From Eledone cirrhosa (Eukaryota), in the NCBI GenBank assembly GCA_964016885.1, contig OZ024753.1, positions 19,158,001 through 19,222,000 on the forward strand: a stretch of 64,000 bases of DNA. The letters run 5' to 3'. The notes under the pieces are model-generated. The model was not told the DNA's origin. It did not search any database and worked only from the letters and a program-made list of their open reading frames with translations. Shown piece by piece: positions 9,619 through 64,000 of this stretch. A program made the position numbers and the translations under genes. Numbering within the stretch: position 1 is the first letter of the stretch; every line of letters begins with the position of its first letter.

Positions 9619-9746
9619 GGCAACGTCAAGTTATCGGTTAACAGGTGGAGAGAATTCTTCCGCTGGCTGACCTATCTTCTTGACCTCTGCTACTGTGACA
9701 GTGGCAGGGGGAAGCTGTAAGTTCATCTTCCCCTTTCCTCCTTCGA

Positions 9747-19279: not shown

Positions 19280-22200
19280 TTGAAATGGCTCTCTCTAACG
19301 GCACCCATACTCCCTCGTAAATACCTAATTACAGAAATTTCAGGAGAACCAGAAGAAGAAACAAAACTCCGATGGGAACTTACATTGACAAAATTCAGGA
19401 CCGACATCTCCATTTCTGAATGTAAACAATCCCGCTACAAAGCCAAATATGAAGCTATTGATGACCAAATTGAAGTTGAAATTCCAAAGCTAAGGACTGG
19501 TATTATAGCTGAAAAACTACGAGAACTATGGATCGGAGATATCTCAAAAGAAGAAAACAAATCAAGAAAGGTATGGCAGCAGAAACAATTATTTCTCGAT
19601 GAATATGCTGCAAATTACGGTAAAGACTCTGGAACCCTGAGAAAAAGCATTGAAAGTGGACAATCTCATCAACACAACATACGCCAGAACACGTGCCAAC
19701 ACAAACACTCACCTTACCTTGAATCAAAGAAGAACTACGGTAATAACTCTTTGCTTTTTCTACAAAAACACCCTATCGCACACAAAATGAACAAAAAGCA
19801 CAAACACGATAGATATTCCTTTGACCAGACCATGAGAAGTAGTAAAACCAGGAGATCATGCTCATGATCTCAACAGAGACTACCAACAAGGAATGTGGAA
19901 ACAAAACGTAGAATAACCAGAACACTCTCAAGATCTCAACAGAGATTGCCCACAAGAAACTGGACGAAAAAACGATCTAAACCTGAAAGCAAACCTAGGT
20001 CATTTTCCCAGATTATTAAAAATAATGCTAACAGGAAGAAAACTAATATACAGAATACCAAAAATACGACAAAATACATAACGAAACCAAATATAATATC
20101 ACGACCAAAAGTTCATCAAGCGAACACCAACAGGAATATAAATCCTGAACAGAGAAAAATCCATTTTTTAACGTCAGGACAACAAAAACCGAAAAAAAAA
20201 AAACTCCGGAGGAAACATACCCAAAACAACTGAAACGTAGATCCTAAAATAATTAATTTATCTAAAAGAGATCTTGACAATGATGAAATGCAAATTCTGT
20301 CAAAAGGACTGAAATTCACACCGAATCCAACAGTCAACCACCAAGAACTGAAGGAGGATACCCAAGAATTCTGTCGAAAATTACGTCTTGTAGAATTCTT
20401 CGCTGATAAAAATAATGAGAGTGATGAATTACTAGTAAAGAATAAATCAATTTTCACTCCGCCAAAAGGAAGAAATATCTATCTCGACCAATACATTGAC
20501 ATCCTGTCTAAATTTCCTCTTAGACATAATACTAATGTTAGGCCAAACATGAACAAATCAGAAATGTCTGCACTTAAACGTATACAAAATGATAAAACAA
20601 TAATAATTAAACAAGCAGATAAAGGGGGTGCAGTTGTTATAATGTATACTGAATACTACAAGGATTTGGTTGAGGAACAACTGAAAGACACAACATTCTA
20701 TCATGAAATACCGTCAAATATAGACCACAACATCATGAAGAAGATCAACAACCTGGCTTCAAAATACCACAACTCATTTACTGATAAGGTAAAAGACTAC
20801 ATCACCAATATTGAGCCGAAACCCAGCAACCTGTATGGCCTACCGAAAGTTCATAAGTCAAAAGAAATACAACTGGCAGTAAGAGAACAAAACAGTGAGT
20901 ACATTAAATTATTACACCCCAAAGACTTAAAACTTAGACCTATTATGGCTGGTCCAACATACCCCACCCAACGTCTAAGCAATTTTGTTGACATTATTTT
21001 GAAACCACTATGTATTCACATACCCAGTTTCATCCGGGATGATATCGACTTCCTGTCCCATCTTCCCAAAACCACGGAAATGAATTTACTTCTACTCTGT
21101 TTTGATGTGGTAAGCCTTTACACCAACATTACACATGATTTAGGAATAAAGGCGGTTAAATACTGGGGGGGAAAAACATAGAGAAGTGATTCCCATTAGA
21201 TTCACAGCGCCATTTATATTAGACGCAGTTAAACTTATTCTGGAAAACAACACTTTCTTCTTCAATGGAAAGAATTACATCCAAATTAGAGTTACAGCGA
21301 TGGGAACGAAGTTTGCTCCCGTTTACGCGAACTCTGTAATGGGATACTTAGAACAACAACTCTACCAAGAAATAGAGGAAAAATATAGTACTGACTTTAG
21401 AAAGTACATTGAAAAATCTTGGAAGAGATACCTTGACGACTGTTTCATCATCTGGATAGAATCTCTAGATACTCTGGATGAGTTCAATATCCTCCTGAAT
21501 AACCTACACCCATCTCTCCAATTCACAAAAGAGATGAGTAGGACCAAATTACCATTCGTAGATATAATGATAATCAAAAACGACACCACCATTACCACGG
21601 ATATATATTATAAACACACAGACACCCATCAATATCTGAATTTTAAGTCGTGCCATCCACCTCATACAAAACGCAACATCCCATACTGCCTAGCCAGAAG
21701 AATTTGTACCATTGTAGAAGATACGAATACCAGGTACAAACGCCTAACAGAACTAAGAGAATTTTTGCTCAAACAAAAATACACATCTCTACTTATAGAA
21801 AATGGCATACAGCGGGCTATAAAAATACCTATACAACAACTTAGAACAACCCAAGGAAGAAGAAACCAAGAACTGGTCATACCATTTATAATGACATAAA
21901 GCCTATATCACCAGAATATCTTCAACACTGCCAAAGCAAACCTACCGATCATTGCTCAAAGTAATGAATTAAAAGGCTTAATCACAGATCGATCTTTGAC
22001 TCTTAGTAAAAGACAGCCAAAAAATTTGAAGCAATTACTAACAAAAGCAAAGTTTGACCTTAACAACAAAGACCAATCATTCACTGTATCTAAATGCAAT
22101 GATAATCGATGCGGCACATGTCAATCCATACACGCCGGTCAATATATGAAAACAAAAACTGGGAAAATATTCCCAAATGCAAATATGAACTGCAAAAGCA

Positions 22201-22475
22201 GAAATCTAATTTACTGCATTAAATGCCCGAATTGTGAAGAACTATATGTCGGTCAAACTGGAAATGCACTATCGGAACGTGCACGGGTACACCGTCAACA
22301 AATCAGAGACCCAAATGTCCGTGAGATACCCCTGAGCAACCACCTAGCAACATGTGGTCAGGGAATATTTATAATATTCCCATTCTACAAATTACACAGC
22401 CCAAGTGAAATCAAGAGACAAATCAAAGAAAAGAATTTTATTGATAAATTCAAACCCAAGCTAAATGAACAATAA
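19280..22475 (+). pseudogene. PLE RT-GIY-YIG ORF broken by several stops/frameshifts
   Basis: Fragments 19280-19867, 19895-20233, 20288-21181, 21186-21899, 21996-22475 in expected domain order. Confidence 0.88.
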
Positions 22476-30280: not shown

Positions 30281-30708
30281 GTGTAGTCGTCAGTATGTTA
30301 GTCTATAGGTACTTGGTGTGAATATAGTTGTCAGTATGTTAGTCTATAGGTACTTTAGTGTGAATGTAGTTGTCAGTATGTGTTAGTCTATAGGTACTTG
30401 CTGTGAACGTAGTTGTCAGTATGTTAGTATATAGGTACTTCAGTGTGAATGTAGTTGTTAGTAAGTTAGTCTATAGGTACTTGGTGTGAACGTAGTTGTC
30501 AGTATGTTAGTCTATAGGTACATTAGTGTGAATGTAGTTGCCAGTATGTTAGTCTATAGGTACTTTAGTGTGAATGTAGTTGTCAGTATATAAGTCTATA
30601 GGTACTTTAGTGTGAATGTAGTTGTCAGTATGTGTTAGTCTATAGGTAATTAGTGTGAATGTGGCTGTCATTATGTATGTGTTAGTCTATAGGTACTTAG
30701 TGTGAATG
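30281..30708. repeat. ~42-bp minisatellite, ~10 copies
   Basis: GTGTGAATGTAGTTGTCAGTATGTTAGTCTATAGGTACTTTA repeated without unique spacers. Confidence 0.9.
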
Positions 30709-30872: not shown

Positions 30873-30926
30873 TGGCTTTCCTGAGGATCTACTTCGAATG
30901 AAACAGTTGTAGTTCTGTAGAAGCCA
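30873..30926 (+). ncRNA. Hammerhead motif, same family as 4092 and 10360
   Basis: tggctttc-CTGAGGA-...-GAAA-cag...ctg-TA-gaagcca; downstream CCTTACTTACTGTGGTT...CCGATTTAACCC shared with 4184 and 10240(-); stem II decayed. Confidence 0.6.
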
Positions 30927-32597: not shown

Positions 32598-33481
32598 CGA
32601 GGTGGGTCAGAAATGTTCCAGGACTGATGTCACAAAAGATTTATTTCAAACCCAAATTTCACACTAAGAGTTTTCTCCTTCAAAGTAATTCACCTGGAGT
32701 CTAATGCACTTTTTCATCCTTTTCTGCCACACTTGCATGCACTCCTGGAAGGATTGTTCCGAGATCCTCCGCAGATCGGTCACCACGGCCTTTTTGATGT
32801 CGTCCACGTCTTCAAAACAGTTCCCCTTCGGGTCGTACTCGAAGATCCATGACTCCTCACCAGTAATGACTGTCCCTATCAAGTCTGGTTCGGTTTCAAG
32901 ATGCTCGAGCATGTCCTGGCACACTTGCATGCGTCGAACCTTCTGGCCATCGTTCAGCAGTTTTGGCACCATCTTCGCGCAGACTTTCCGCATGTCCACA
33001 TTTTCAGTGAGTATCTTCCAGACGCGGTCCTGATTTATGCCCAGCTCATTTGCCATCAGTCGAACAGTCAGCCGACGATCGCTACGCACCATCTGCATGT
33101 CACGCTCAACGTTGACCTCAGTCCTGGTTGTTGAGGGCCTTCCGCTCCTGGGGTCATCTTCCACATCCTCGCGTCCTTCTTTAAACCTCTTGCACAACTC
33201 AAACACATTGTCTCATCTCCATACACTTGCTGCAGCAATCCCTGTGCTTCTGACGAAGTTTTCAAGTTTTTTCTTTGCTCTGTGCTCATTGCTTGACGAC
33301 CTGAAACAGAGGACATGTGTATAAAATTATGAAGAAAAAAGTTTGATCGCCGCAGAGAGCTAAGATTACAGTTACATAGTCCAGGGGGGATTACTTTGAA
33401 GGAGAAAACTCTTAATGTGAAGTTTGGGTTTGAAATAAATCTTTTGTAACATCAGTCCTGGAACTCTTCTGACACACCTCG
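32598..33481 (-). mobile_element. Mariner (Tc1/mariner) element, internally deleted, ~92-bp inverted termini, TA target duplication
   Basis: TA-CGAGGTG...CACCTCG-TA; peptide EDDPRSGRP, KVCAKMVPKLL, ITGEESWIFEYDP fused directly to the C-terminal region ending YFEG. Confidence 0.92.
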
Positions 33482-33950: not shown

Positions 33951-34479
33951 TATATATATATATGAGAGTGTTGAAGATTGCTTGAAGCATTGTGGTATAA
34001 TAAAATTGGTCTTTTTTGAAGCCTAAACAATGCAGATGCGTAAATTTCCGGGTAACAGAAACAGGTGAGAGAGATGTAAGAGGAATTTTTTGAATGAGAC
34101 GTAGATGGTGTAGAAGAATGTAGAAAAGAGTGTAAAAATAATAACACGAGATAGTATTGCCTTGGAAGTGATTTAATTGTCCATATATTTCGGATTTCGC
34201 ATCCATCAACTTGGAGTTTCCGAGGGGAAATATTTTTTAGTCGGAGAGGGACAACACGTGGTCATGTGTTGTCCCTCTCGGACTAAAAACATATACATAT
34301 ATATATACTAGCAGAAGAACTACAGCGGGTGGTTTGTTTATTAGTATTATTGTACTATGTATACTAGTATTATTGTACTATGCATATTAGTATTATACGC
34401 AAATATATATGCATATAAGTATGATATGTAAATTGAAATGTAAATTGACAATATTTTCTTGTTCTCCCATTTATTTCTG

Positions 34480-36890
34480 ATTCGGAAAATTCCTCAAATT
34501 CGCGGCGGAATTTATCGTTACGATGGACTCTTTACTTTCTTAAATTGCAACATAGTTAACCTTTATATTATTAAGAAGAATATACGTAATCTCTTTAACC
34601 AACATAACTTAAAAATTGAATTTGATAACAACATCCAACTAGCTAATTTCTTGGATGTATCTCTTAATCTTGACACTGGCCTATATTACCCTTACCATAA
34701 AAACAATGAGAATCTAAATTATGTTAATTTTAAATCTAACCACCCCACTTATATTAAGAATGCTATAGTTAGTAATATTGGAAAAAGAATATCCAACCTA
34801 TCATCTAATAAAAACATGTTTGATGCTAACGCCAATCACTATAATAACGCGCATTCTAAAGCTGGTTATCCCGATAAAATCAAATATAGTAAAGAAACAA
34901 ATTCTAGAATATCTTACAGTAGAATAATTAATCATGATCATTCCAATAACTTTAATAAAAGACCTAGAATCAAAAACATAATCTGGTATAATGCTCCTTT
35001 CTCCATCTCTATTAATAATAATATACCTAAATTATTATTTAGTGCCTTAAATAAATGCTTCCCTCCCTCACATATCTATAGTAAAATATTTAACAAACAC
35101 ACTATAAAATGTTCCTATTCGACCTCCTCCAACATCTCCAACATTAACTCTAAACACAACAATAAAATACTAAATATTAAATCTCTTCCTTCCAACACTG
35201 AATATCATAATAATAGTAATAGTACTCCCGACGTCATTGTTAACTCTAGACTGCAAACCCAAATACAACGTCAAACGCAACTTCGTTAAATGTTCTTCAT
35301 CCCATTCTAAATCAAGAAACTATTATTCCTATCGTAAATAACTTCTCCAATCCAATTCCTTCTATATTCCTAACACTAGGTCACTTGTTAATAACTCTGT
35401 TAATTTCTCTAATCGCTATTGTAATTGCCCTGTTAAAAATAAATCTCCTCTCAACAACCATTGTCTTGAAAAAAAACTTAATCTACGAATATAAAGTTAT
35501 AACTGACACCAATTCCTTTACCTATTTTGGCTCCACTTCCACCTCCTTTAAAGCTCGTCTTCATAATCATCATTTGTCTTTTAAATACCAACCTAAAAGA
35601 ACCAACGCGGCACTCTCAGAACTCATATGGTCCTTGAAAGACAAAAATATTAACTATAACATCTCTTGGAGGAAGGTTTGTTCTGCTTCTCCATACTTGA
35701 ATGCTTCTCTATCCAAGACATGTAATCTCTGTTTATGTGAGAAATTTACCATTATATCTAATTTAGATTCTATAATAAATAGACGCACTTACTTGTTTTC
35801 TCTCTGCTTGCATAAATTCCACAGAATATTCCATAAAGTATACAGCTAATATCTAATACTTTACCAATTTAAAATCCTTTTCTCAAAGGCACATATATAT
35901 ATACATATATATTTCTTTTAAAATATACCCATCTTTCTACCTTATTTGAATGTTATTTATTATACATTATATAATACTAGTTACTCATTCTATATCACTC
36001 CTATTTATCACTTCTCTTTCTTTCTTTTTTTCCTTTTTTCTTTTAATTTCTAACCTCTAATCTGTACCTTTTCTTCCTAAATACTTCTCAATTCTCATTA
36101 TTACTCACCACAATATATCCTTACTCTTTTAAATGCATTATAACATCACCTTGAAAAATCTTTCGTAAACATAAACATTTTTTGACGTTAGATTATACAT
36201 CCTCAATTAATTTTTTTTTTCTCCCTTTCATGCTCATCTAACTTATACATATTACACATATTCATCCACTCTTCTACTTCTTTTCACAATATATCCTTAA
36301 TTACATTATATTTTTTTAAATAATACATATCAACAATTTCTTTCCATCGCACATATTATTAAACCCTTAAATATTTTTCTTAATACATATTAACAATTTC
36401 TTTTCGTCGCACATATTATTAAACCCTACAATATACAAACCTTAATTTAACATTATTCTGAAATTTTTCTCTTCGTTAATTTTCAAATTCTTTTAATTAT
36501 ATAATATCTTACAACGGTTTTTTAACCTCTATATGTAAAACAATATATTTTTCTCAGTTATAAAAGTTCTCTCTCTCTCTCTATCACCAATCTCTCCTCC
36601 TATCTCATCCGTCCTTATTATAGTCCTCCCCCTCCATTCTTTACTCTCATTTCCTCCTCTTTTTCATCATTTCAACCCCGCCCTCAATTGTTTTTCCCAA
36701 TGTCACACATCAATCTAAAACTACTTTTCATATGTTGATCTAAAACTGCACTATTCACAAGTGTTTTTTAACCTTCATATCATGTCTCCCTATTTTATCT
36801 GACGAAAACGCAAATGTCATCGCATGATGATATTTGTTTTTGAAATGCGCATAATAAAATACATGGAACTTTTTTACCATCTTTTGATCT
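34480..36890 (+). mobile_element. Hydra-like PLE, 5'-truncated and decayed, with 3' UTR HHR
   Basis: GGIYRYDG, NFLDVSL, SNHP, IIWYNAPFS, CNC..., LIYEY...YFGST, CNLCLCEK; homologous to ORF 464..2194. Confidence 0.85.
36791..36861 (+). ncRNA. Type I hammerhead ribozyme
   Basis: tattttat-CTGACGA-aaacgcaaatgtcatc-gcat-gatgatatttgttttt-GAAA-tgcgca-TA-ataaaata; 8-bp stem I, long stem II, palindromic stem III. Confidence 0.88.
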
Positions 36891-43816: not shown

Positions 43817-46800
43817 CTATAGTTTGATGTAGAGTGAAGGCCCATTCACACGGGCCATTCTCGCCACTTTCACCCATCTTTCATAGAAACGGCTGGGGTG
43901 CAGCACCTCTCTCTCCATCCTGATCCTTCTTCCGAAATGATATCGGAAGAAACGGACCAGTTGTTGGCCAGAGAGAAAGGTGCCTGACCTCAGTCCTTTC
44001 AGACGCGTCCACCATACAACCTCTTTCGCCATGGCTATTACGCACAGAAACACCGCCTCTGCTTCATCTTTGAAGGGGGGAGGCGGCTTGATCATTACAA
44101 TAGACTCGGTGGTCAACCGGATCGGTCCCACCCTTGACAGCAGTTGTTCGACATAGCCCCACAGATCGGGTACGCCCGAGCAGTGTACCAATGCGTGTGC
44201 AACGGTTTCCACGTCGCACACGCATCTGGGACAGATCTTTTTGGCGGGGTCCCTACTCGGGCGCCCGTGACTGTAGAGCCTTTCTCGAACGGGTAAAGCC
44301 CCTCGGTAGCACTGCCAGGCCAGGGACTTCTGGAAGTTGTCCATAGGTCCCGGGCTGAATTTCCTACCGAACAGGCTGGCCAGTTCGTCCTCCTCCATGT
44401 CTAGGGCTTCTCCGAGGGCGTCGTCGCACGTGCTGCGTACCAGCCCTCTATAGAATGTTGCGGTGGAGTCTCCACTGATAACCTGATCCGCCTGCCAGAG
44501 GGCGGTGAGCGCCTGGGCACACTCAGTGTGCCAGGCGCCCAGTTTTCTCGGTCTTTGCTTGACCCAGGATTGCAGCTCGGTGAGTGATACGAGTCTGGGA
44601 AAGGTTCGTCTCACAAACGAGGCCCACACCGGTTGTCCGGTGAGGAATACGTAGAGGTGCCGTAGCCTTAATGCGTGTTTACGCATCATTAGCCACGGCA
44701 TCCCCAGCCCTCGTTTTGAAGGGTGTTGACAGCAGATGGATCTCCTCACCATAGGAGCCCGCCTCTTCCAAAGGAATTGGAAGAGCGCGCGCTCCATCTT
44801 GGTGAGGGTTTCCCTTGGGCAGGGCACTACGGTCAGGCGGTAGTAGATGACGGACGCTATGTACGTGTTCGCCACCTCCGCCCGAGCTTTCAGGGATAGT
44901 TTGCAACTGGCTCACTTCTGGGTCAGTGCAAACACCCTGTTCGTAACCTCCGCCCAGTTTTTCTCCACCTGGAGGTCCGGTCCGAACCAGACCCCGAGCA
45001 ACTTCACCAGGCCCTCCGTCCAGCGTCCGACGACGCCATCGGAGGGCATCGGTCTGCCCCTCCACGTGCCGATTTGCAAACCGATCGACTTGTCCCGGTT
45101 CAGCTTAGCCCATGTGAACATTTCGTACTCCTCCAGTAAGGTGCCGACCGCCTCGATTTCAGAGGCCGTCGACACCATTACTGTCACGTCATCGGCGTAG
45201 GCTGACACCGCTTCCGCAATCCCGGTTCCAAAGGGATGCCCTGCAACAACTCCAACTTCCGCAGTAGTGGCTCGAGAGTCAACACATACAGAAGGGAGGA
45301 GAGAGGGCACCCTTGTCGGATGGACCGCGCGATTTTGAACGGCTCCGAGAGGTAGCCGTTCACCTTGACCCTAGAGCAGATGCGGCTGCTGTGCATAGCA
45401 GTGATCCAGCACCTGAAAACGGGTCCGAAGCCTGCCGCCGCTAGCACCGCATCCAGGTAACCATGGTCGACCCTATCGAACGCCTTAGATTGATCCAAGT
45501 TGATCAGAGCCCCACCAAAGCCGGGTTCGTTCCCAACCCTCTCTATGATGTATCGCATGAGGTGGAGGTTGTCATGGATGGACCTGGACGGGATAGCGCA
45601 TGTCTGCGCATCTCCCACCAGGTTGCCCACGACAAGCGCCAACCTCTTTGCTAGCACCTTGGCCAAAATCTGTAACTCTGTATTTAGCAGAGTTATGGGC
45701 CTGAAGTTACTTATTTCGTCCCCCTTGTTCTCGTCCTTCCTCACTAGCGTGACTACGCCCTTGGTCAAAGTACAGGGAATTCTCCCGTTCTGTTGCCAGT
45801 TGCAGTAGACCGCCTCGAGGAGATCGGGGAACAAGTCCGGCATAGCTAGATATAATTCGTAAGGAAGACCATCGAGACCCGGGGATTTGCGTTTGCCGCA
45901 TTGGCTCAGCACGACCTCTATCTCAGCGGCCGAAATCGGCTCCTCGCAGGACTTCGCCTCCCTGTCCGAGAGGCGCGGCAGGCCGTCGAGGTATGGACCG
46001 AAGTCCACGTTCCCAACCGGCTCCCCGCCCCTCCCGAACAGTCGGGCAAAGTGCCTTTGAAAGGCCTCACACATCTGCTTAGGCTCAAGAATCGCCCGTC
46101 CATCCAGGTCTCGCAAAGACCAGATGGTGGATTTAGTTCCACTGTTGGCCTCTGTCACGCGGGCCCAGCTAACAGCTTTGGTCCCCTCGTTCCCTAGAGC
46201 ACGTATTTTACTTCGGACAACGCAGCCTTCGTGCTTCGCGTCGAAAAACTGGCTCAAAGCCGTTCTCGACGCTAGCACTCTGGCCACGTCGCCGCTTCTA
46301 ATTACCTCTTCTACTCTATCTATTAGCTCCATTTCCTTCCTATTCCTATCCGCAGCTAGAACCTTACTAAATTCTATCGAGACTACTCTAATCTCTCTCT
46401 TTAGAGATACCCACCACCTGCTGTTGACGATCGCTCCAGTCAACCGTTCCTTAACTAACGTACTAATCCAATTCCTGTAGGCTCTACTTGCCGGCAAGGA
46501 CAAGTTGAGCTTCCAGTAACCGGGGCCCTGTCTATGAGTTCTGTCAAGGTTGACCATGCAGGTCACTAATTTGTGGTCTGAATAGCCAACCATGCGCATT
46601 TTTGGACAACTTAAAAATTCCTTATCCTTAATTCTAACTAAGACCCTATCTAGGTACGACCTAGATGATCCGCTACGATTTGCCCAAGTCCAGGTTGGCG
46701 CAGTCGGAAAATCTAGTCGATATCTATCGGCCAGGTCAAATCGACCGATTAACCCTTTGAGGATATTACACCCCTCTCTATCGGGGCAGGCCCCTACGTA

Positions 46801-47253
46801 GTCCCAGCGTGCATCCAGGATACCATTCCAGTCCCCCACTAATACCAAGGAGCGGGACGTCCCCAGAAAAGTCTCCAGACGATGGAAGAAGTCCGGCCGC
46901 ATTGACCCGAAAGGGCCGTAGGCGGCTACCAACCTAAACGCTCCGCCTTTACCACTGCCAAGGTCCAGAACCACTAGTCGACCCTCCGGGTCCAAATGTA
47001 CCATCTGTGTTGCGAGACCCAGATGTTTTTGCAGCAAAACGACAACTCCACCCCCACCTCCGGGCTGACAGAGAGATGCGTGCATCTCAAAGTCATCAAA
47101 GGTGGGGGCCAGCTGTCGCACGTTGCTGATCCGGGCCTCGCAAATAACCATCACATCTATACGTTGTGACCTGAGGTCATTTAGAAGCATTGCTTGCTTC
47201 CAAGTTGAGCCCAGGCCACGCGCATTTAAACAGCCTACTCTTAGCATAGCCAT
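43817..47253 (-). pseudogene. LINE ORF2; one frameshift (~45212) and one TGA (~44912)
   Basis: 697-aa APE-RT frame, then YADD fragment and 352-aa C-terminal frame. Confidence 0.92.
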
Positions 47254-47277
47254 GTTGGTGGTGAAGAGAAAAGGCAC

Positions 47278-49025
47278 TTACCTCTCTGCGTCCCGGGTAT
47301 CGGGCTGCACAATTTCCATTAGGGTGGGGGATGGGTTGTTGGGTGGGGTGGTGGTTTGTGGAAGTGTGGGGCCATCAGTGTGTTGTGTGGTTGGGGAGCT
47401 TGGAGTTGTGTGGGTGTTTGGGGAGGGAGTGGGATAGTTTTTTAGGAGGACGCGGTTAATGGGCCCGACGCAGGGGGGACCCTCGTCCTCTTTAAAATTG
47501 TTTTTTAAAGTTTTATAGGTGTCCTGTGGGGCCTTAATCATTTTGAGGTGGGGGAAATCCCCTGCCTGGGTGAAGTTAGGCCCTTGTGTTTTTATTAGAT
47601 TGTTGTTGTACACAATGTTTAACAGTTTTTTGTTTCTTGTGTTTATGTATGTGTATGCATGTTTTTGTTTTTGTGTAGTGTTTTTTGTTTGCTGTTGTTG
47701 TGAGCTCTTTTGTGTTGGTGTCAGTGTTATGTTTTGGGGAGGGTTTTTTTTCATTTGTGTGTCTGAGGTGTGTTTTCTTTTTTTCTTTTGATTGTGTGGA
47801 AGTGCTCCTCCTCGTCTGACGACGAACTAGGGTTATCTTCCGCGTTGGAGGGGAGGGGTATATTTTCGGGTTGTGTTTGCGGTACGGGTGTTTTGGAAAT
47901 TGTTTTTGTTTTTTGAGTGGAGGGGATGGGTTGGACATTGTTTTGTTTTGGTTTGAGCTGTGGTGGTTGTTTTTGTAGTGGTAGTTGTGGTGATTGTGTT
48001 GGTTGTGCAGTTGTTGGTGGTGTAGGCAGGATTGGGGTTTTCTTATTAAGTTGGGGACAGACAGCCCTCAGGTGACCTCTGGTTCCGCAGAGGTAACACG
48101 AGGGCCGTCTACCCTCAACGGCAATGTTGATGAAGGTTAGATCATCCAGTATGACGCGTTCAGGGATCTGGGCGATCCTTTCGGGCCTCATTTGAACTAC
48201 AAGTTCGAGGCTCGTTCCACTGAACGCGTCACCCGATGCCTTTCCCATGGACACCAGCATGTCATCCTCCAGGTCCAGAAAACCTGTCAAAACCCACCAT
48301 ATGTCCATAATCGGCAGGATGGTGTGGATTTTTATTTTTTGTGTTCTTCTACCCATGTACGTAGGGTAGAAGGTGTATGCGGTGGATGTGATTGGTTTGA
48401 TGGACAGTTTCACTGCTGTGTCCCTGTCCTTCATGAGAATGGATAGACTCCCGTAGAGTCTATCCTTCTGAATGAAGGTGATGTCCTTCATGACGTCTTT
48501 TAAAACCAGCTCTATCTCGCTCTGTGATGGTTGAGCTGGTTTTTTACTTCTGTTCGAGATTGTCCTAAACATGACCGTGTTTAGGAGTTTCTGGCTTTTT
48601 AGTTCCGGGGAGGAATGGATTGTGAATGAACCATTTTCTCCGTACACTATATATTTTTTGGCATCCGCCAGTAGCTCCTTCGATTTTGTTATATCTACTG
48701 GCAGATAGTCGAGGGTTTTCCTTGTCGTCTCGGCGAAGGAGAAATTTTGTTTGTTTGTGTTGTTGTTGTCGTTGGTGGTGTTGTTGTTGTCATTGTTGTT
48801 GTTGTCACCGTTATTGGTCTTGTTGTTGTTGTTATTGTTATTGTTATTGGTGTTGTTTTCGTCCGTCGCATTGTTGTTGTTGTTCCTGTTGCTGCTGGTT
48901 CTTTGGGTTGTTGCCATGGCAACGTCAAGTTGTTGGTTAACAGGTAGAGAGAATTCTTCCTCTGGCTGACCTTTCTTCTTGACCTCTGCTACTGTGACAG
49001 TGGCAGGGGGAAGCTGTAAGTTCAT
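47278..49025 (-). pseudogene. LINE ORF1 with one frameshift in an A-run (~47780)
   Basis: 424-aa and 158-aa frames together match the copy 1 ORF1. Confidence 0.85.
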
Positions 49026-50286
49026 CTTCCCCTTTCCTCCTTCGAATTTTGGTGAAGAAGCTTCGGCTATTTAAAAAATATTGACTTTTCAACAAGAAAA
49101 AACTTTTTTTTTTTTTGTTTAACTATTTCGCCTAAAGGCGTAGAATATTTTGAGAGACTGACCAGATCAAAGTTTGACCTGGCAGTCTCTCTACAAAATG
49201 GTACAAAAATTAAAGTTATCAGACAAGGATTTCTATAGAAATTTAAACAGAACTTACTCAGCAAGTTATACGCGTGTGTCCATCCCAGATATACTATTCT
49301 TTCTGATGACTGAAGACTGATAGAAATACCTGTCCTCAGGAAACCACTGGTAAATGAAATAAGTATCTTATGATGTTTATTACATAACTATATATATAGA
49401 GAGAGTGATGGATAGATAGATAGGTAGATAGATAGATAGAGAGAGAGGGATAGAGAAAGAGAGAGGGATGACTATGCACATTCAAATTAAAGCCCATGTC
49501 ATGTAATAAATGATGCAACAAAAGAAAAACTGTAGTATCGTTAAATAGTTGGATATCTACTTAATATATCATATTCTCTTTGGAAACGTTATTGTCGAGG
49601 AGCAAGTTGAAACAGGGTCGTAAATAATAAATTGGACTCATATTTATGTTTAGAAGTAGAGATCGAAGTGTAATAAAAAAAATGTGCAAAGATGACATTT
49701 ATTTTATCATTAAGAATTTCCATCTCTGCGGAGTGGACTTGGATTATTTTAAGTTAAATTGATTGAAATAGTGTAAACTTAATTACTAAAGAAACACATA
49801 AATAATAATACAATCGTATAGAAATAATTGTTGCATTTCTAATATCTAAAGAACATGGATGAATCTGGTTATCATATTAAAAATGCATTACAATATTTAT
49901 CCCATTTTACATTGCATAAGTGTTTTTACATTCAGATTCACGTAATTGCGAAGGGAAATAATTTAAGAATAATTTAAGAAAATAATTAACTAATTGTTCC
50001 TTTAATGTTAAACCTTGTTTTCTTTATACAGCTTCATATAAGCTTCTTTTGAATCGCAAAACACGTACATAAAATGTTACACAATACATTCCGTCATATT
50101 AATGTTCTAAGAATTTAATAACGATATTGTTAAACGATATACTGTCAATTAATATTTGAAAGTCTCATTTAGGTGTTAAGTATTTATGTATGTATATATA
50201 GAGAGAGAGCAGACAGAATAGGAAGGTTGTGTAGTTGCTAGTTAAGGTAGGCCTAAAATCAAGAAGAAAGTGGGAACGTTTTTCTC

Positions 50287-54819: not shown

Positions 54820-56100
54820 ACAGGGTTTGGCAGTCCTGCCCCTGGTCCCTTCTGTGTGAAGGAGGTGACAGGCACGTAGTTGGGGGGGGGGGGTACCTAA
54901 GGCTCGCTTGATTCGTCCGATTTGAAGGCGGGCATTGTTGTTGTTATTATCAAGACTAGTTGTGGTGTGGGTAACAGCTGTTACCAACACCAGTAAAGTA
55001 GAGTTGTAGTGGTCATTGTCGGCGTGGTTCTCGGTGCGAACTGGTAATGGTCCGTAGGAGGGCAACCATTGTCGGAGTTTCCACTGCACCTTGTTGAATC
55101 ATGGCCTGTATGTTGTCACGGCCCGGAGGTTCCGCTTGGATCTGGTCGGGCTAGATTAGCGGATGCCAAAATGCCGTCGAGGGCAGGTTGGTGGTTAGTG
55201 TCCCGAAGTTCTGTGCATCGGGTGTCGGAGTTAGCTACATTAACATTACTACGTCTATTGAACCTAATAGATTCGGTATAACTAGCCCTGGTCAGTACGT
55301 TGTTGTAGTATTCAGCATGTTGTTCGAATATCTTGGCGTTGGCCGACAAGGTGGATATTCTGTAGGATACACTATTCACGATGGTATTTAGCACTGTCTT
55401 GGGGTGGTTGGAATGGTTGGTTACATAACGGAGATATTCATTAGGCTGTTGCCGTCATAGTCCGGTTTCTATTTCTAAAGTTACGTCGAGAAAGTTGTCT
55501 GTTCAATTTCTATTTTAAGTCACATATTTTTTTAAAGAATACTCTAAGTTTTTTACGTTTTCTTTCTAATAAGTTGGCGTTAAGGTTGTGGAAGGTAAAA
55601 AGGGTGTTGTCTCTGTACAATCCGCCCCTGAACTCTGGGAACTCAATCAGAATATTATGGAGTAAGGAGATGCCGACAATGTCAGAGATTTCCGCCAAAT
55701 CACTGGAGTCCATTGTTATTTCGAAGCAGTCCGGTCAGTCGTTACGTTCCCAGAGTTTTCCTTCGAATTATCTCAATGTATTCCTAGCTACAGTAACTAT
55801 GTCCACTTTACTATGGCTGATGTTATACTCTTGGATAGCTACGTGGAGGGTTTTCTTCATGAGTACAGCGGAAATGAACTCCATGTTGCTAAACCTTTCG
55901 ATAACGTCGTTGATGCAAGTCCATAAGTTAATTCCTAAATTAGCTTTAAGTTCTGGGATAATTCTGTCTATAATGGACTTGCTGACCCTACCTAGGTCAG
56001 ACTTTGAGGGCGCGATTAGTCTTACATGGAGTTTAGTCTCAAAGTCAGGTTTATGGTCGTTAATCGTTATGTGTGGGGTCGTAAATCGATAGTTCATGAA
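54820..56100 (-). pseudogene. Decayed Hydra-like PLE RT
   Basis: ITINDHKPDF...RLIAPSKSDLGRVSK...INLW, GGLYRDN, SYRISTLS...HAEYYN in broken frames. Confidence 0.82.
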
Positions 56101-56432
56101 ATGCCTTTACCCACACGATAAACGAGCACCGGGTCTTCCAAGCGTGACACAACCCACAAACCCCTGCTTCCTGTTTACAACAAAACAAGTCTTTGACTGA
56201 CCAATACACATTCCAAAACGCGCAAACACGCATGCACACACACACACAGACACACGAATCCTTAATTGCTCGCGCGCACGCGAAAACACGCACATGAATA
56301 TATATGAATACACACCGGTATTACCACCCCACCAATTACACCAAAACACACATAAACGACGACACACATAAAATAGGGCCAATACCTATATATATAAATT
56401 CTCAGTCAAATATCTCTTTTTTCGCATCAATA

Positions 56433-56913: not shown

Positions 56914-57910
56914 ATGTATATGTATATAGTGTATCTCTTTATCTCTCATACCTTCTAAGTGTAAAAGGATCACAAGTTCTTAATGGTCGAGAGTTATCCA
57001 TATGAGAAAATGCGAAAACGTAATAAATTCAATAGAGAATGTGTGAGTAATAAAAACGTTGCTTAATGTAACAGTTATCGAGATTTTAAAATGTATGATA
57101 CTACAACTTATGTTTATCTAGGAAAACATCTCATGAATTATAACAGTCAATGAGATCCACTGGAATAGGATATATATAGAGAGAAATATAAGGGGTAATA
57201 TATGTAGAAGAGATGTTTTCCTAAAGTTAAACTGTTAAGTTTGAAAATATTTAATTTATGCTATTTTAGGGTGAAGAATCAAAATTAAATTTTTTTTTTA
57301 CATTGCTGGTTATTTATATTTATTAGGTTTGTAAATTCTATAAGTGTGTTAAGATTTCTAAACTTTTGAATGTTATCAGGATAACATTTAAAGGATTTAG
57401 ATGGCCAGCGGAAAGGAAAGTTTACCCTGTTGAATATTTTCCGAAATGTAAACTTTATTGAAGATAATCATTGTCAATATATTCAGTATGTAAAGCTTAT
57501 GAAGTACTTATTGTTAGAAATATTTAAATAACGATTATGTATATAGATATATAATAATGAGCCAGTATATTTTAGGTAAATGATAACGAAAATAAAAATA
57601 AAATAATAGATTGAGGCATGCTAAAGTTAAATATATACCTATATATTATAGGGTGTAAATGCATTAATTATTCATAGTTCAAAATAAATAATAATCAAGA
57701 AATTTAAATGTTAACTAAACATTACCTATAGAAAGATGCAGGGATGTATATATGGATATATATTAGGTATTAGTGATATAATATACTTTAGGTAAATGAT
57801 AACGGTTATAATTTTATATAATAAAGTTCTACGTGTTACAATTAAATACATATATATATATATATGATAAAGAACACAAGAGCGTCTACAACATCAAAAG
57901 ATTGTTATTG

Positions 57911-57955: not shown

Positions 57956-60110
57956 TATAAAAGGGGTTTGATTGGTGTTATGGACTCTACCAACCAAACA
58001 TTCAAGAACAAAGAGTAAAGAGAGTAAAGAGCAAAAGTAGGGGACGATAAGTCTAATTTTGGTGCGGGAGGGTGGGGTGTGGGTCCTTGTTTAATAGCTG
58101 CGGTCATATTCATTCCCGGGAGTCGAGTGGTTAGCTGAACCATAGATGGGGTGGCGTCGATAGTATGGTACAGAGGGTGTGCAGAGGCTACCCAAACACA
58201 AAGGGCATACAATATATATATAACGGAGGAGAAAGTACATGAGGTAATTAGAAATGGAAAAAGAGTAATAATAATAATCTATAATTAATAATGTATAATA
58301 AGGAATGGGGAAGATTACACTATAATAAGGTATAAAAGTAAGAATAATGTAACATATAAAGGAGGATAAAAGTGGAAATAATAAAGATAAAAAATATATA
58401 TGTAAAAAAATATATAGAGAATATATAAAGAAATATAAGCGAGTATTTGGAGGGGAAAACATAATGTAAAAAAACCGATTTTTTCAAATAAAAATAAAAA
58501 TATTATAATTATGGGGGGAGAAAACGGGATAGAAAAATATGATCAAATGTGATTAGTTGAGAGAATATAAGATGATAATAGTTATGTCAAGTTTATACAT
58601 CTTAATAATAAATAATATGTGTATCAGAGTTACAGAACCTTAAATTCACTTACAGGTTCAAGCCACGTGGCATAGTCCATTGTTTATATGTGCGGTCATG
58701 CGCGTTTGTTTTTGACACCACAGCAGATGCACAAGTTCGTAAATTCCAATGCAGGTAGAAATCTATTTTTGCTCACCCGGACATTGACGGAGGATCCAAT
58801 ATTCCTAGTTCAATATGTGTGTGGTGTTATTTTGGTCGCACAAATCAATCACTTGGTTCAATATTATGGAGTATGGTTTTCTGGTCTTCGTAACAGTGTC
58901 AGCGGTTGTATATCTGGAAATCACAAGGATCACAGTACTCCGGTTTGGTGTGATTATCGGTCATCCAGCTATGTTGTTGGTGGTTGGATTCAATTATATT
59001 GCCCCGATCGTAGAACTTTGGTGTCGATAGAACATTAACGAGGCAGGGTGAGATCGCATCTGTGGTACAAAACGGTACACAAGGAAATTCTTCGTCTTCG
59101 TTTCATCCAGGTCCAGCAGTCACGTGCAAGAACCGCTACGTAGTAATTGTGGGGTTAATCGGTCAAGTCAGCAACTGACCGAAAATATATATATAAGAAA
59201 AACTATAATAAATGCATGGATAATTCAGAGTTCAATATAAGGTCTATAATAATTTATAGTTTGTATATTTGCTCTATATTTGAATCATGGATATAAACAT
59301 GCAGTAGGTATATTTAAAAACATAGAAAATATAATTACATACATATTATAAATAAGAGATCAAAAACGCATGAAAGATTCACAGTTAGAAATAAGTTCCG
59401 TAAAAATAATTAACTTTAGCATGCCTCAATCTATTACTTTATTTTTAATTTCGTTATCATTTACCTAAAATATACTGGCTCATTAATATATATCTATATA
59501 CATAATCGTTATTTAAATATTTCTAACTGTAAGTACTTCATAAGCTTTACATACTGAATATGTTGACAATGATTATCTTCGGTAAAGTTTACATTTAGGA
59601 AAATATTCAACAGTGTAAACTGTCCTTTCCGCTGGCCAGCTAAATCCTTTAAACGTTATCCTGATAACATTGAGAAGTTTAGAAATGTTAACACACTTAT
59701 AGAATAAAAATAAAACTAATAAATATAAATAACCAGCAATTTGTGAAAAAACCTAAAATCTTGATTCTTCACCCTAAAATAGCATAAATTAAATATTTTC
59801 AAACTTAACAGTTTAACTTTAGGAAAAAATCTCCTTCTGCATATATTACCCCCTTATCTCTGCCTCTATAAATCCTATTCCAGTGGCTCTCATTGACTGT
59901 TATAATTGATGAGATGTTCTCCTAGATAAACATAAGTTGTAGTATCATACATTTTAAAATCTCTATAACTGTTACATTAAGCAACGTTTTTCTTACTCAC
60001 ACATTCTCTATTGAATTTATTACGTTTTCGCATTTTCTCATTATTAGGGTATAAAGGTTACATTTTCTCTTGATTAAATCTTAACCATGTAACATCTCAG
60101 GGTATGTCCT

Positions 60111-60169
60111 TATATTTTGTCTGATGAGGACGTACTGTTGTATATCCGAAATATGTATAATAAAATGTA
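60111..60169 (+). ncRNA. Type I hammerhead ribozyme
   Basis: tatattttgt-CTGATGA-ggacgtac-tgtt-gtatatcc-GAAA-tatgta-TA-ataaaatgta. Confidence 0.85.
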
Positions 60170-60314
60170 ATTGATCAAAAGAACATATATTTTATTAATA
60201 TTTGTATTTTAATATTAATAAATCTGGAAAATTATTTACTGTAGAGTGCTTCCAATCTACTGTAAAACTCATTCTTTGATATACTCATTGAATCTTGTTT
60301 AACTCTTTAATATA

Positions 60315-60353
<39 letters not shown>

Positions 60354-60475
60354 AATATAGACATAGAATATTCGAAAATATTCTGTATGATTATAATAAA
60401 CATTTTGAAGACATAATCGCTATAGAATAGAATACGTCACGTATTACAATTAGATTCTCGATAAAAGCAAGGGAA

Positions 60476-60518
60476 GTAATCTACGCGTTTCATTCTTGTT
60501 AGAAATCATCAGGACTAC
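60476..60518 (-). ncRNA. Array hammerhead (also 60786-60828, 61096-61138)
   Basis: gtagtc-CTGATGA-t-ttct-aaca-agaa-t-GAAA-cgcg-TA-gattac. Confidence 0.92.
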
Positions 60519-61432
60519 ATATCCAGTGCTTTTATCGAGAATGACACAGCTAGAGACTTATAGAATACTTAGCTGTGTACAGGAACTGGTTTGAAAGAGC
60601 GGTTGCCGGTCCGGCAGAAATTAGAAATTGGAATAAATGCTCTGAAATAGCGATATATATGTGAATATAGACATAGAATATTCGAAAATATTCTGTATGT
60701 TTATAATAAACATTTTGAAGACCTAATCGCTATAGAATAGAATACGTCACGTATTACAATTAGATTCTCGATAAAAGCAAGGGAAGTAATCTACGCGTTT
60801 CATTCTTGTTAGAAATCATCAGGACTACATATCCAGTGCTTTTATCGAGAATGACACAGCTAGAGACTTATAGAATACTTAGCTGTGTACAGGAACTGGT
60901 TTGAAAGAGCGGTTGCCGGTCCGGCAGAAATTAGAAATTGGAATAAATGCTCTGAAATAGCGATATATATGTGAATATAGACATAGAATATTCGAAAATA
61001 TTCTGTATGTTTATAATAAACATTTTGAAGACCTAATCGCTATAGAATAGAATACGTCACGTATTACAATTAGATTCTCGATAAAAGCAAGGGAAGTAAT
61101 CTACGCGTTTCATTCTTGTTAGAAATCATCAGGACTACATATCCAGTGCTTTTATCGAGAATGACACAGCTAGAGACTTATAGAATACTAAGCTGTGTAC
61201 AGGAACTGGTTTGAAAGAGCGGTTGCCGGTCCGGCAGAAATTAGAAATTGGAATAAATGCTCTGAAATAGCGATATATATGTGAATATAGACATAGAATA
61301 TTCGAAAATATTCTGTATGTTTATAATAAACATCTGCCGGACCGGCAACCGCTCTTTCAAACCAGTTCCTGTACACAGCTAAGTATTCTATAAGTCTCTA
61401 GCTGTGTCATTCTCGATAAAAGCACTGGATAT

Positions 61433-61475
61433 GTAGTCCTGATGATTTCTAACAAGAATGAAACGCGTAGATTAC
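61433..61475 (+). ncRNA. Array hammerhead (also 61743-61785, 62053-62095, 62363-62405)
   Basis: gtagtc-CTGATGA-t-ttct-aaca-agaa-t-GAAA-cgcg-TA-gattac. Confidence 0.92.
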
Positions 61476-62558
61476 TTCCCTTGCTTTTATCGAGAATCTA
61501 ATTGTAATACGTGACGTATTCTATTCTATAGCGATTAGGTCTTCAAAATGTTTATTATAAACATACAGAATATTTTCGAATATTCTATGTCTATATTCAC
61601 ATATATATCGCTATTTCAGAGCATTTATTTCAATTTCTAATTTCTGCCGGACCGGCAACCGCTCTTTCAAACCAGTTCCTGTACACAGCTAAGTATTCTA
61701 TAAGTCTCTAGCTGTGTCATTCTCGATAAAAGCACTGGATATGTAGTCCTGATGATTTCTAACAAGAATGAAACGCGTAGATTACTTCCCTTGCTTTTAT
61801 CGAGAATCTAATTGTAATACGTGACGTATTCTATTCTATAGCGATTAGGTCTTCAAAATGTTTATTATAAACATACAGAATATTTTCGAATATTCTATGT
61901 CTATATTCACATATATATCGCTATTTCAGAGCATTTATTCCAATTTCTAATTTCTGCCGGACCGGCAACCGCTCTTTCAAACCAGTTCCTGTACACAGCT
62001 AAGTATTCTATAAGTCTCTAGCTGTGTCATTCTCGATAAAAGCACTGGATATGTAGTCCTGATGATTTCTAACAAGAATGAAACGCGTAGATTACTTCCC
62101 TTGCTTTTATCGAGAATCTAATTGTAATACGTGACGTATTCTATTCTATAGCGATTAGGTCTTCAAAATGTTTATTATAAACATACAGAATATTTTCGAA
62201 TATTCTATGTCTATATTCACATATATATCGCTATTTCAGAGCATTTATTCCAATTTCTAATTTCTGCCGGACCGGCAACCGCTCTTTCAAACCAGTTCCT
62301 GTACACAGCTAAGTATTCTATAAGTCTCTAGCTGTGTCATTCTCGATAAAAGCACTGGATATGTAGTCCTGATGATTTCTAACAAGAATGAAACGCGTAG
62401 ATTACTTCCCTTGCTTTTATCGAGAATCTAATTGTAATACGTGACGTATTCTATTCTATAGCGATTAGGTCTTCAAAATGTTTATTATAAACATACAGAA
62501 TATTTTCGAATATTCTATGTCTATATTCACATATATATCGCTATTTCAGAGCATTTAT

Positions 62559-62615
<57 letters not shown>

Positions 62616-62810
62616 AAAGTTCTATTTAAAATTCTTGGGATACAACAAGTAAATATTTTTATAACTAATATAAAGCACTCGACAAGTATTTGGAGTAGAT
62701 GTACGATATCAATAAATGGAAACTATATTTATAAAACAATATATTTATTTCATTATACATATTTCAGGGATACCAAATTAAATATATTGTATATACCAAA
62801 TTATATATTG

Positions 62811-62875
62811 TATTTTGTCTGATGAAGGCATACCATAATTTAATTTGGTATCCCTGAAATATGTATAATGAAATA
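62811..62875 (+). ncRNA. Type I hammerhead inside a fold-back (62702-62793 / 62839-62917)
   Basis: tattttgt-CTGATGA-aggcatacca...tggtatccct-GAAA-tatgta-TA-atgaaata. Confidence 0.85.
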
Positions 62876-63189
62876 AATATGGTTTTATAAATATAGTTTC
62901 CATTTATTAATATCGTATATATATATATATATATTTCGTTTCTGAATTTGTTTAGCAAGATTCTTTATCTGAAATCGTGTGTTGAAACCGATATTGTTCT
63001 ACTTTGGGAGGGTCATGTTGCCAATAAGAAACACACGCACCAGTTGCTTTCACTTCAATTTATTATAATAAATGTATAATAAATTAATAAATTTATTTAT
63101 AAATTTCAGGTTGGTTGGTTGGTTCCACAACCAGATAGTTGTTTATATATAGTCATAGTTCTTTCGCCACACACTCATTGCTAGTAACT

Positions 63190-64000
63190 ACAGACTGTCC
63201 TACTTCCTCTCCCTGATCATACGCCCCATCATTGAAATGTCCCCAGATGAATGTGACAGCACGGATGACCTCCTCAGCAGAATCGGCGTGAGTAACCGAT
63301 CTAGGGACCTAGCAAACTGCATAATAGGTAGTGTGGATGTTGTGTCCCTGTATCCATCTATTGACGTGGATTTTGCTGTGGAGAAATGCGTAGAAATGAT
63401 CAGTGAGAGCAATGTTGAGTTTCGTGGGATTGATACCAGTGAGCTGGGACTCCTACTTAAACTTACCTATAGTAATAATTACCTAGACACATACGACCTT
63501 AGCAACCTGTGCCCTACAAGACCAGCAAGAGGCAGACCACCTACCATTATCTCAATGGCCAAGAAAACCCACACAGATAGATGAAACGGGTGGACCAGAG
63601 CCATACGGACACCCGAAAACCACGATGAACTGAAGAAAATGATTGCACATGCGGTAGGGGCCAGCATAAAACTAACCCTTAGGAACATATGTTCAAATTT
63701 AATGGAAAAACATATGCCCAAGAAGAAGGAGCAGCCATTGGTGTTAGCATTGCAGGCGACATAGCTAACTTATTCATGGTATGTTGGGACAGTAGACTTA
63801 AACTTAAACTTAAAGAACAATTAGAAGACCCCTTAACCCTGATAATGTACTCCCGCTACGTTGATGATATAAACATCGTAGTTAAGACACCCCCACTAGA
63901 GAACAGTCAGGAACTAGAGAAAAACAAAATGGAAAGCATCCAGCAAATAGCTAACTCCATCCACCAGAGCATTAGAGTTACTATAGACTACCCAAGTAAA
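63190..64000 (+). pseudogene. PLE-type RT fragment (runs off window); one TGA (63582) and one frameshift (~63686)
   Basis: RPII, GSVDVVSLYPSID, FKFNGKTYAQEEGAAIG...ANLFM, SRYVDD. Confidence 0.8.

What the first reader, a model, noticed from the sequence alone, without database searches (positions are those of the whole stretch)
60345..62564. Young 310-bp hammerhead array in two divergent arms: candidate retrozyme / circular-RNA retroelement
Seen: seven identical HHRs (6-bp stem I, intact CUGAUGA/GAAA core, palindromic CGCG stem III, GUA site), one per 310-bp non-coding unit. I see only about 4 differences among units. Both arms point 3'-outward into (TA)n and end at different positions in the unit, neither at the cleavage site. 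Known: metazoan non-LTR retrozymes are tandem HHR repeats a few hundred nt long that self-process into linear and circular monomers and are thought to use PLE machinery; HHRs with minimal palindromic stem III cleave as dimers. Inference: multi-unit arms with permuted ends fit rolling reverse transcription of a 310-nt circle, primed from both target strands.
Basis: partly seen in the sequence, partly recalled or inferred. Interest (0 to 1): 0.92.

Follow-up and report, generated by a model that had tools for sequence, protein, structure and literature searches.

The report
Two-armed ribozyme retroelement copied from RNA
This is one of well over a thousand recent insertions of a small non-coding jumping element with a predicted self-cutting RNA motif; its two back-to-back arms end at two fixed points and carry the same private mutations, so both were likely copied from one small, probably circular RNA by a Penelope-type enzyme, which makes a long-assumed copying step testable.

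Summary
Observation confirmed: 7 type I hammerheads, 310-bp units, 4 differences, two arms pointing outward into (TA)n. It is one insertion of a young dispersed family (4,535 exact ribozyme 38-mers; about 1,400 insertions): a non-LTR retrozyme. Correction: outer ends are not permuted. They sit at two fixed sites about 30 nt apart, one per arm (84 of 84 complete insertions; 14 of 15 in a second set), which is the known Penelope 'tail'. Inner ends are random and ignore the cut site. Both arms share one haplotype (71 of 73; shuffle 8.4), private variants fill every unit, and fixed variants are A>G-rich: an RNA monomer bottleneck. Older sister families keep the ribozyme and a 15-bp end-clamping helix by compensatory change. 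Cleavage, the circle and the autonomous partner are not shown. DNA-level exchange between arrays also occurs, including from this locus. The scan already noted this family and this end rule elsewhere in the genome (e1-8802758, e1-9580480).

The parts
60317..60350 (.). left (TA)n target microsatellite
60345..61333 (-). left arm, 3.2 units; outer end at site B (unit position about 132-139), inner end at position 79
61334..62564 (+). right arm, 4.0 units; inner end at position 174-175, outer end at site A (position 165)
61333..61334 (.). head-to-head (5'-to-5') junction with 1 nt of overlap
62563..62612 (.). right (TA)n target microsatellite
61780..62089 (+). predicted 310-nt monomer, cut site to cut site; non-coding, 34% GC
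   Evidence: fold z-score -5.2 for a 310-nt frame of the unit
61433..61475 (+). type I hammerhead 1, predicted cut after 61469
61743..61785 (+). type I hammerhead 2, predicted cut after 61779
62053..62095 (+). type I hammerhead 3, predicted cut after 62089
62363..62405 (+). type I hammerhead 4, predicted cut after 62399
61096..61138 (-). type I hammerhead 5, predicted cut after 61102
60786..60828 (-). type I hammerhead 6, predicted cut after 60792
60476..60518 (-). type I hammerhead 7, predicted cut after 60482
61720..61806 (+). 15-bp clamp helix (61720-61734 with 61792-61806) that extends stem I and pairs the two ends of a cut monomer; one per unit
62530..62564 (+). 'tail': segment between sites B and A, present at the end of the right arm and absent from the end of the left arm
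60819..61450 (.). 632-bp centre of the array, found letter for letter (junction and private variant at 61190 included) inside another array on contig C1373

Best explanation
The array is one insertion of a young non-coding retrozyme that is likely mobilised by a Penelope-like element's reverse transcriptase-endonuclease, which would nick both strands of a (TA)n tract and copy one small, probably circular RNA twice, once from each nick. Shown: dispersal, fixed A and B outer ends with one of each per insertion, random inner ends joined by short overlaps or fillers, 12-38 nt target duplications, one haplotype per insertion, covarying ribozyme and clamp. Inferred: tandem transcripts cut themselves (best as paired ribozymes through the palindromic stem III); the clamp holds the two ends of the 310-nt monomer together for ligation; a dimeric Penelope-type enzyme starts one cDNA at site A and one at site B about 30 nt apart; each rolls round the circle for a median of 3-4 turns (up to 27); the two cDNA ends are joined by end-joining repair. 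Afterwards arrays are modified at DNA level by block duplication and exchange between loci. Confidence in the parts: PLE-driven retrozyme about 0.9; both arms from one RNA about 0.8; a covalent monomer circle as the usual template about 0.6.
For: Family: 4,535 exact ribozyme 38-mers, 1,412 A ends, 1,279 B ends. End rule: 59 of 59 divergent end pairs in C1:0-200 Mb are A+B; 84 of 84 complete two-armed insertions, 47 of 47 among those not picked as pairs; 14 of 15 in a second set. Target: TA repeat at both flanks in 81 of 84; informative target duplications in 10 of 84 against 1.05 with shuffled flanks. Inner ends uniform over the unit (chi-square p 0.32), 3 of 178 within 6 nt of the cut site, 829 crossings of the cut site with no scar (3 variants, 5.0 expected). 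Same haplotype in both arms in 71 of 73 (shuffle mean 8.4, max 19). 41 haplotypes in 106 insertions, 40 fixed variants, 23 private, 0 in the 11 core nucleotides. A>G makes 11 of 37 fixed substitutions but 9 of 120 single-unit ones (Fisher p 0.001), as expected if an edited RNA monomer was copied into every unit. Neither arm is a copy of the other: B longer by over a unit in 26 of 84, A in 34. Covariation over 15 sequences: 94% of cells paired, 18 of 27 pairs change on both sides, including C3-G8 to U3-A8 and 10 of 15 clamp pairs. PMC11167929: a purified PLE protein cuts and extends both strands of AT-rich DNA, starts at two internal RNA sites that define the tail, and is predicted to be a dimer.
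Against: Self-cleavage, a 310-nt RNA and a circle were not observed. No autonomous element sharing the unit was found. In L062 and L114 a variant sits in one unit only, at the same turn in both arms; L128 and L096 mix two haplotypes. The PLE studied in vitro used mainly uncut RNA and did not need ribozyme cleavage. Only 1 of 9 predicted Xenopus retrozyme dimers cleaved in vitro. The direction of shared fixed variants is not rooted, the binomial test of A>G against T>C among fixed variants alone is p 0.08, and zero core hits among 40 variants is not significant by itself. About 1 insertion in 7 has a single arm (14, 3). L147 and L132 break the end rule. Rfam score is below threshold.
Confidence: 0.6

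Rival explanations
1. Same Penelope twin priming, but the usual template is a long uncut read-through transcript of an existing array; the ribozyme cuts rarely.
For: Uncut RNA was the main substrate for a PLE in vitro. Axolotl retrozymes accumulate multimers as well as circles. In-register variants in both arms of L062 and L114, and the X-then-Y order in both arms of L128. No stops at the cut site fits uncut RNA equally.
Against: Variants are nearly all either in every unit or in one; a parent's single-unit mutations should be inherited in register, but only 2 single-site cases (plus the two chimeric loci) stand against 67 unshared ones over 71,347 overlapping bases. Copying arrays can only shorten them. 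The L128 pattern can arise by DNA exchange, as the C1373 array shows. The 173 variant recurs singly at unrelated turns in three other loci.
Confidence: 0.18
2. The template is the cut linear monomer, never ligated; the clamp helix holds its ends together and the reverse transcriptase jumps from the 5' end back to the 3' end at each turn.
For: Explains the monomer bottleneck equally well; the clamp is predicted with pair probabilities of 0.97-1.0 over 14 pairs in the linear monomer.
Against: 829 crossings without excess stops or scars at the cut site; template jumps usually leave both (general knowledge of non-LTR reverse transcriptases, recalled).
Confidence: 0.1
3. Short copies insert first and the arrays grow afterwards in the DNA by unequal crossing-over and conversion, as proposed for vertebrate retrozymes; no rolling copy is needed.
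For: Proposed in bioRxiv 10.64898/2026.07.22.740005. Repeated single-arm variant patterns in L038, L051, L144 and the 632-bp exchange with C1373 show that DNA-level change happens.
Against: Private variants fill both inverted arms while single-unit variants stay unshared; 145 of 178 arms cross two or more cut sites although the family is very young (single-unit variant rate 4.7e-4); arms stay short (median 3.4 units).
Confidence: 0.08
4. The inverted arm arises by fold-back self-priming (as proposed for rotifer Penelope elements), or the two-armed shape is an assembly artefact.
For: Self-priming proposal in PMC3846280. This locus's own junction was not bridged by any laid read or contig.
Against: The two inner ends are independent in phase (10 of 89 within 20 nt, 12.3 expected), so there is no fold-back symmetry; each outer end is primed at its own site in its own TA flank; junctions differ from locus to locus; run X1 shows 14 other arm-to-arm joints.
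Confidence: 0.04

Closest known systems
Metazoan non-LTR retrozymes (Cervera and de la Pena 2020, PMC7229834, passages and parts 2-4 of 6 read; Li, Clavereau and Pollet, bioRxiv 10.64898/2026.07.22.740005, parts 1-3 of 5 read)
   Same: Dispersed tandem non-coding units of 150-450 bp, one type I hammerhead each, low GC, long target duplications. The ribozyme joins features of the two axolotl types: weak stem III with palindromic cap (HHR_Amex1) and U-U at the base of stem II (HHR_Amex2).
   Different: The parts read describe head-to-tail arrays and propose rolling copying by PLEs without showing it; 'inverted' has 0 occurrences in PMC7229834's main text. Here most insertions have two head-to-head arms with a strict A/B end rule and one haplotype. 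RNA was shown there and not here. Their supplements (life-cycle figure S9; closed bioRxiv files) were not seen.
Insertion architecture of EN+ Penelope-like elements (PMC3846280 and PMC8557442, passages read)
   Same: Inverted 5'-truncated copy head-to-head with the main copy, 30-40 bp tail at one end only, 8-10 bp or longer target duplications, (TA)n targeting in Neptune and Naiad clades; non-autonomous multicopy derivatives noted for Chlamys.
   Different: No ORF; both arms are multi-unit; tail asymmetry is near-absolute here rather than 'often' or 'optional'; junctions are not fold-back palindromes; no autonomous element with this repeat was found.
Poseidon PLE of Anolis carolinensis in vitro (Frangieh et al. 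2024, PMC11167929, parts 1-2 of 4 read)
   Same: Cuts and extends both strands of AT-rich DNA; two internal start sites that define the tail; predicted dimer.
   Different: There both strands used either start site and the template was linear, mostly uncut RNA; here each insertion uses each site once, start sites are AT-rich and can pair with the target, and the template behaves as a monomer.

Membership tests
Metazoan non-LTR retrozyme | Tandem non-coding units of 150-450 bp, GC under 50% | tested here: met
   310 bp, 34% GC, longest stop-free frame 59 codons
Metazoan non-LTR retrozyme | Type I hammerhead in every unit | tested here: met
   7 of 7 units with intact core; full-length but sub-threshold match to Rfam HH9; covariation in sister families
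Metazoan non-LTR retrozyme | Dispersed multi-locus family with target duplications longer than 4 bp | tested here: met
   12-38 nt duplications in 10 of 84, 1.05 expected
Metazoan non-LTR retrozyme | Self-cleavage of monomer or dimer transcripts | not testable with these tools
   needs in vitro transcription
Metazoan non-LTR retrozyme | Expressed as linear and circular monomer RNA | tested here: inconclusive
   run X18 (kind not on record) holds contigs with clustered A>G and T>C changes, as edited RNA would; contigs cannot tell a circle from tandem DNA
EN+ Penelope-like element insertion signature | Head-to-head inverted 5'-truncated copy | tested here: met
   89 two-armed insertions analysed against 14 single-armed in the same set
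EN+ Penelope-like element insertion signature | 30-40 bp tail at one end only | tested here: met
   ends at about 125-139 and 165-172, one of each in 84 of 84 and 14 of 15
EN+ Penelope-like element insertion signature | Microsatellite (TA)n target | tested here: met
   81 of 84
Autonomous Penelope-like element | ORF with reverse transcriptase and GIY-YIG endonuclease | tested here: not met
   none in the unit; neighbouring ORF remnants belong to other elements
Pseudo-LTR of an autonomous Penelope-like element | Unit found as the terminal repeat of a coding element | tested here: inconclusive
   no shared coding neighbour in about 1.0 Mb of fetched loci and 19 loci of the oldest sister family; only a small part of the genome was read

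The most novel reading that the evidence does not exclude
An old lineage of small ribozyme RNAs, with no coding parent left, has spread in repeated waves as circular RNAs; each insertion is made by one dimeric Penelope-type enzyme whose two active sites start 30 nt apart on the same circle, roll round it together, and write RNA-editing changes of that single molecule into every unit of both arms. The same twin start would explain the inverted repeats and one-sided tail of all Penelope-like elements.
Probability: 0.4. Interest if true: 0.85.

Novelty: new variant of a known kind. Interest (0 to 1): 0.58.

Why it matters
Two open points meet here: whether retrozyme circles really are templates for genomic copies (proposed in PMC7229834, not shown in the parts read), and how Penelope-like elements make their inverted repeats and one-sided tail (called unresolved in PMC3846280 and PMC8557442). 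A 310-nt element with about 1,400 young insertions gives a near-absolute end rule and single-molecule haplotype tracking, and a small RNA that can be made as circle, linear monomer or multimer for an existing in vitro PLE assay. The class of element and the insertion shape are known, and the scan noted this family before, so the value is in testability rather than in a new kind of system.

Tried and rejected
DNA search of the own genome with the unit returned nothing because common words are skipped; patterns were used instead. No RNA holder listed among 24 runs: no evidence either way. Horizontal transfer considered and not supported: 20 runs of 17 coded organisms hold 69-94% of the words, but the 5 runs of other organisms laid (X2, X4, X8, X12, X17) each give one 331-340 nt contig with 0-1 differences at depth 10-15 (X12: 365), and raw Hi-C reads of X12's organism gave 0 reads in about 1 in 100 of the run; low-level foreign DNA fits best, not proven. 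Autonomous partner sought by low-stringency BLAST, a profile of 8 units, sister-family loci and widely spaced motif pairs: none; the widely spaced pairs were long sister arrays. 'One arm is copied from the other' rejected. Fold-back self-priming rejected. 173C inherited from one parent array rejected. L128 as proof of a multimer template weakened: its junction is unique in the assembly, but C1373 shows that such chimeras form at DNA level; a genome-wide count of such haplotype switches was not obtained. First arm-tracking scripts over-ran at the clamp's inverted repeat and were replaced; clamp indices were off and corrected. Host identity was not tested; 'cephalopod' comes only from earlier scan notes. 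Literature searches listed no paper on two-armed retrozyme insertions; most subscription papers are outside that library.

Full report
Observation. The sequence is as described. Two 310-bp arrays meet at 61333/61334 between two (TA)n tracts. The left arm lies on the minus strand (60345-61333, 3.2 units), the right on the plus strand (61334-62564, 4.0 units); there are seven identical hammerhead cores and four differences in all. Numbering the unit from the predicted cut site, the outer ends fall at about 132-139 and at 165, the inner ends at 79 and 174-175. Rfam finds nothing at gathering score and a full-length, sub-threshold Hammerhead_HH9 match at E 0.052.

The family. The window lies in a 3.0-Gb genome. 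An exact 38-mer of the ribozyme occurs 4,535 times, control 0, a lower bound because variant haplotypes are missed. Patterns for the unit breaking off into flank find 1,412 ends at position 165-167 (site A) and 1,279 at about 130-139 (site B); a few of these are internal variants, so about 1,400 insertions is an estimate. In the listed ends from the first 200 Mb of C1, all 59 divergent pairs are one A and one B, none AA or BB.

Anatomy of insertions. I fetched 111 regions: 11 from the ribozyme list, 40 of 54 paired-end regions, 60 of 71 unpaired-end regions. With the window they gave 89 two-armed insertions after dropping eight loci: four duplicates (L040, L060, L074, L094), one assembly gap (L034), and three complex ones (L043 and L135, which do have A and B ends, and L132, whose left arm ends at 286 and breaks the rule). 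Of the 89, five run off the fetched stretch; the other 84 are all A+B, including 47 of 47 that were not chosen as pairs. Fourteen insertions are single-armed. A second set of 20 regions gave 17 two-armed insertions, 15 complete, 14 A+B and one (L147) with a left end at 94, and 3 single arms. Both flanks carry TA repeats in 81 of 84, and interrupted target duplications of 12-38 nt are seen in 10 of 84 against 1.05 with shuffled flanks. Inner ends are uniform over the unit (p 0.32), 3 of 178 lie within 6 nt of the cut site, and arms cross the cut site 829 times without scars. Junctions show 1-8 nt overlaps (41), blunt joins (11) or 1-33 nt fillers (33) in 85 of 89, and the two inner phases are independent. 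Arms have a median of 3.4 units, up to 27; either may be the longer. This is the published Penelope-like insertion signature: inverted head-to-head copy, 30-40 bp tail at one end, microsatellite target (PMC3846280; PMC8557442; passages). A purified Penelope-like protein cuts and extends both strands and starts at two internal sites that define the tail (PMC11167929).

The template. Each insertion carries one haplotype. Both arms agree in 71 of 73 insertions with at least one unit per arm; shuffling arms gives 8.4, at most 19. Over 106 insertions there are 41 haplotypes and 40 fixed variants, 23 seen at one locus only, none in the 11 core nucleotides. Single-unit variants are rare (4.7e-4) and almost never shared between arms (67 unshared over 71,347 overlapping bases). 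A>G on the RNA strand makes 11 of 37 fixed substitutions but 9 of 120 single-unit ones (Fisher p 0.001; unrooted, and p 0.08 for A>G against T>C among fixed variants alone). Together this points to one RNA monomer, at times edited, copied many times into both arms; with seamless passage of the cut site a ligated circle is the simplest form. This step is inference.

Results against. L062 and L114 carry a variant in one unit only, at the same turn in both arms; L128 has haplotype X in the two outer units of both arms and Y inside; L096 switches within one arm. These fit a multimer template. But the window's own junction also occurs on contig C1373, where a 632-bp tract identical to 60819-61450, with the window's private variant at 61190, sits inside outer units of another haplotype with a 2-nt scar at its edge. 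So array centres can be exchanged between loci in the DNA (or mis-joined in assembly; C1373 is a 21-kb contig), which can explain L128 and L096, although no donor with L128's junction is in the assembly. The 173 variant of L114 recurs singly elsewhere. L062 and L114 stay unexplained. Repeated variants within arms of L038, L051 and L144 show later block duplication. Uncut RNA was the main substrate for the PLE in vitro, and 8 of 9 predicted Xenopus retrozyme dimers did not cleave.

The ribozyme is under selection. Sister families about 77% identical, with 316-320 bp units, share the tail segment and the same back-to-back A/B ends; their motif has 2,017 exact matches; a still older family of small units exists too. 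On 15 aligned sequences, 94% of cells pair and 18 of 27 pairs change on both sides, 0 of 500 shuffles as high, slid controls 31-45% paired (related sequences inflate such counts). The core pair C3-G8 becomes U3-A8, a natural active variant (PMC3088659, passage). Stem III caps differ in sequence but are mostly palindromic, as in ribozymes that cut as dimers. Stem I continues into a 15-bp helix, 10 of 15 pairs covarying, predicted to pair the two ends of a cut monomer, which would favour ligation.

Expression and other organisms. No run on record as RNA was listed. Run X1 holds the unit at very high depth with 14 arm-to-arm joints of other insertions. Run X18, same coded organism, kind not on record, holds contigs with 8-11 changes per 75-96 nt, A>G and T>C, as double-stranded RNA editing on both strands would give; suggestive only. 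Five runs of other organisms hold a single unit-length contig, four at depth 10-15; I read this as probable foreign DNA, not transfer.

Partner. None found. The window has remnants of several Penelope-like families, one with Pfam RVT_1 and GIY-YIG matches at 21150-22472; the array sits in a (TA)n shared with the ends of two other hammerhead-bearing elements, whose ends are not homologous to this unit.

Comparison and verdict. It works like a Penelope-like insertion and meets every sequence-testable feature of a metazoan non-LTR retrozyme (PMC7229834; bioRxiv 10.64898/2026.07.22.740005); cleavage and circular RNA are untested. The rolling copy by PLE machinery is proposed in those papers; searches listed no paper describing two-armed retrozyme insertions or haplotype evidence, but supplements were not read and subscription papers are missing. 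Earlier scan notes report this same family and end rule in this genome; they are not independent support. New variant of a known kind; interest 0.58.

Noticed in passing
window 62613-64000 and L031:612-3400: Decayed Penelope-like element starting right of the array: inverted terminal repeat (62696-62923), hammerhead at 62819-62865, RT and GIY-YIG-like ORF remnants continuing past the window, closed by an inverted end in (TA)n.
   Followed up: partly
window 59200-60316: End of another hammerhead-bearing element (core at 60121-60157) that shares the left (TA)n with the array; 59406-60041 also occurs inverted at 57002-57634.
   Followed up: partly
window 4098-4125, 10365-10392, 30881-30908: Hammerhead cores of an abundant family whose first 15 nt match the array's ribozyme at 4098; it has its own two ends about 70 nt apart.
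   Followed up: partly
window 467-2200 (-), 20234-22472 (+), 34444-35846 (+), 55116-56106 (-): ORF remnants of further Penelope-like families; 21150-22472 has RVT_1 (weak) and GIY-YIG Pfam matches.
   Followed up: partly
L135, L066, L129, L163-L201, L204-L222: At least three older waves of sister retrozymes (316-320 bp and longer units), most with a U3-A8 hammerhead core; arrays up to 18 units (L193).
   Followed up: yes
L223 (contig C1373): Array of another haplotype whose centre is identical to window 60819-61450: exchange between loci or an assembly chimera.
   Followed up: yes
L114 and L143: Both carry the 173 variant in both arms and both have the rarer A end at 172, on different background haplotypes.
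   Followed up: partly
L199:2383-3014: Sister-family array whose 163-bp unit has lost the ribozyme half yet is still tandem.
   Followed up: no
run X12: Single 340-nt contig of the unit at depth 365 plus a sister-family piece, while raw Hi-C reads of the same coded organism show none.
   Followed up: partly
window 4523-9630 (-) and 43820-49070 (-): Two related copies of a LINE-like retrotransposon with long ORFs; a mariner-like transposase remnant at 32667-33212 (-) (labels from recalled motifs, not searched).
   Followed up: no
window 30282-30708: 42-bp minisatellite, 10 copies, just upstream of the hammerhead at 30881.
   Followed up: no
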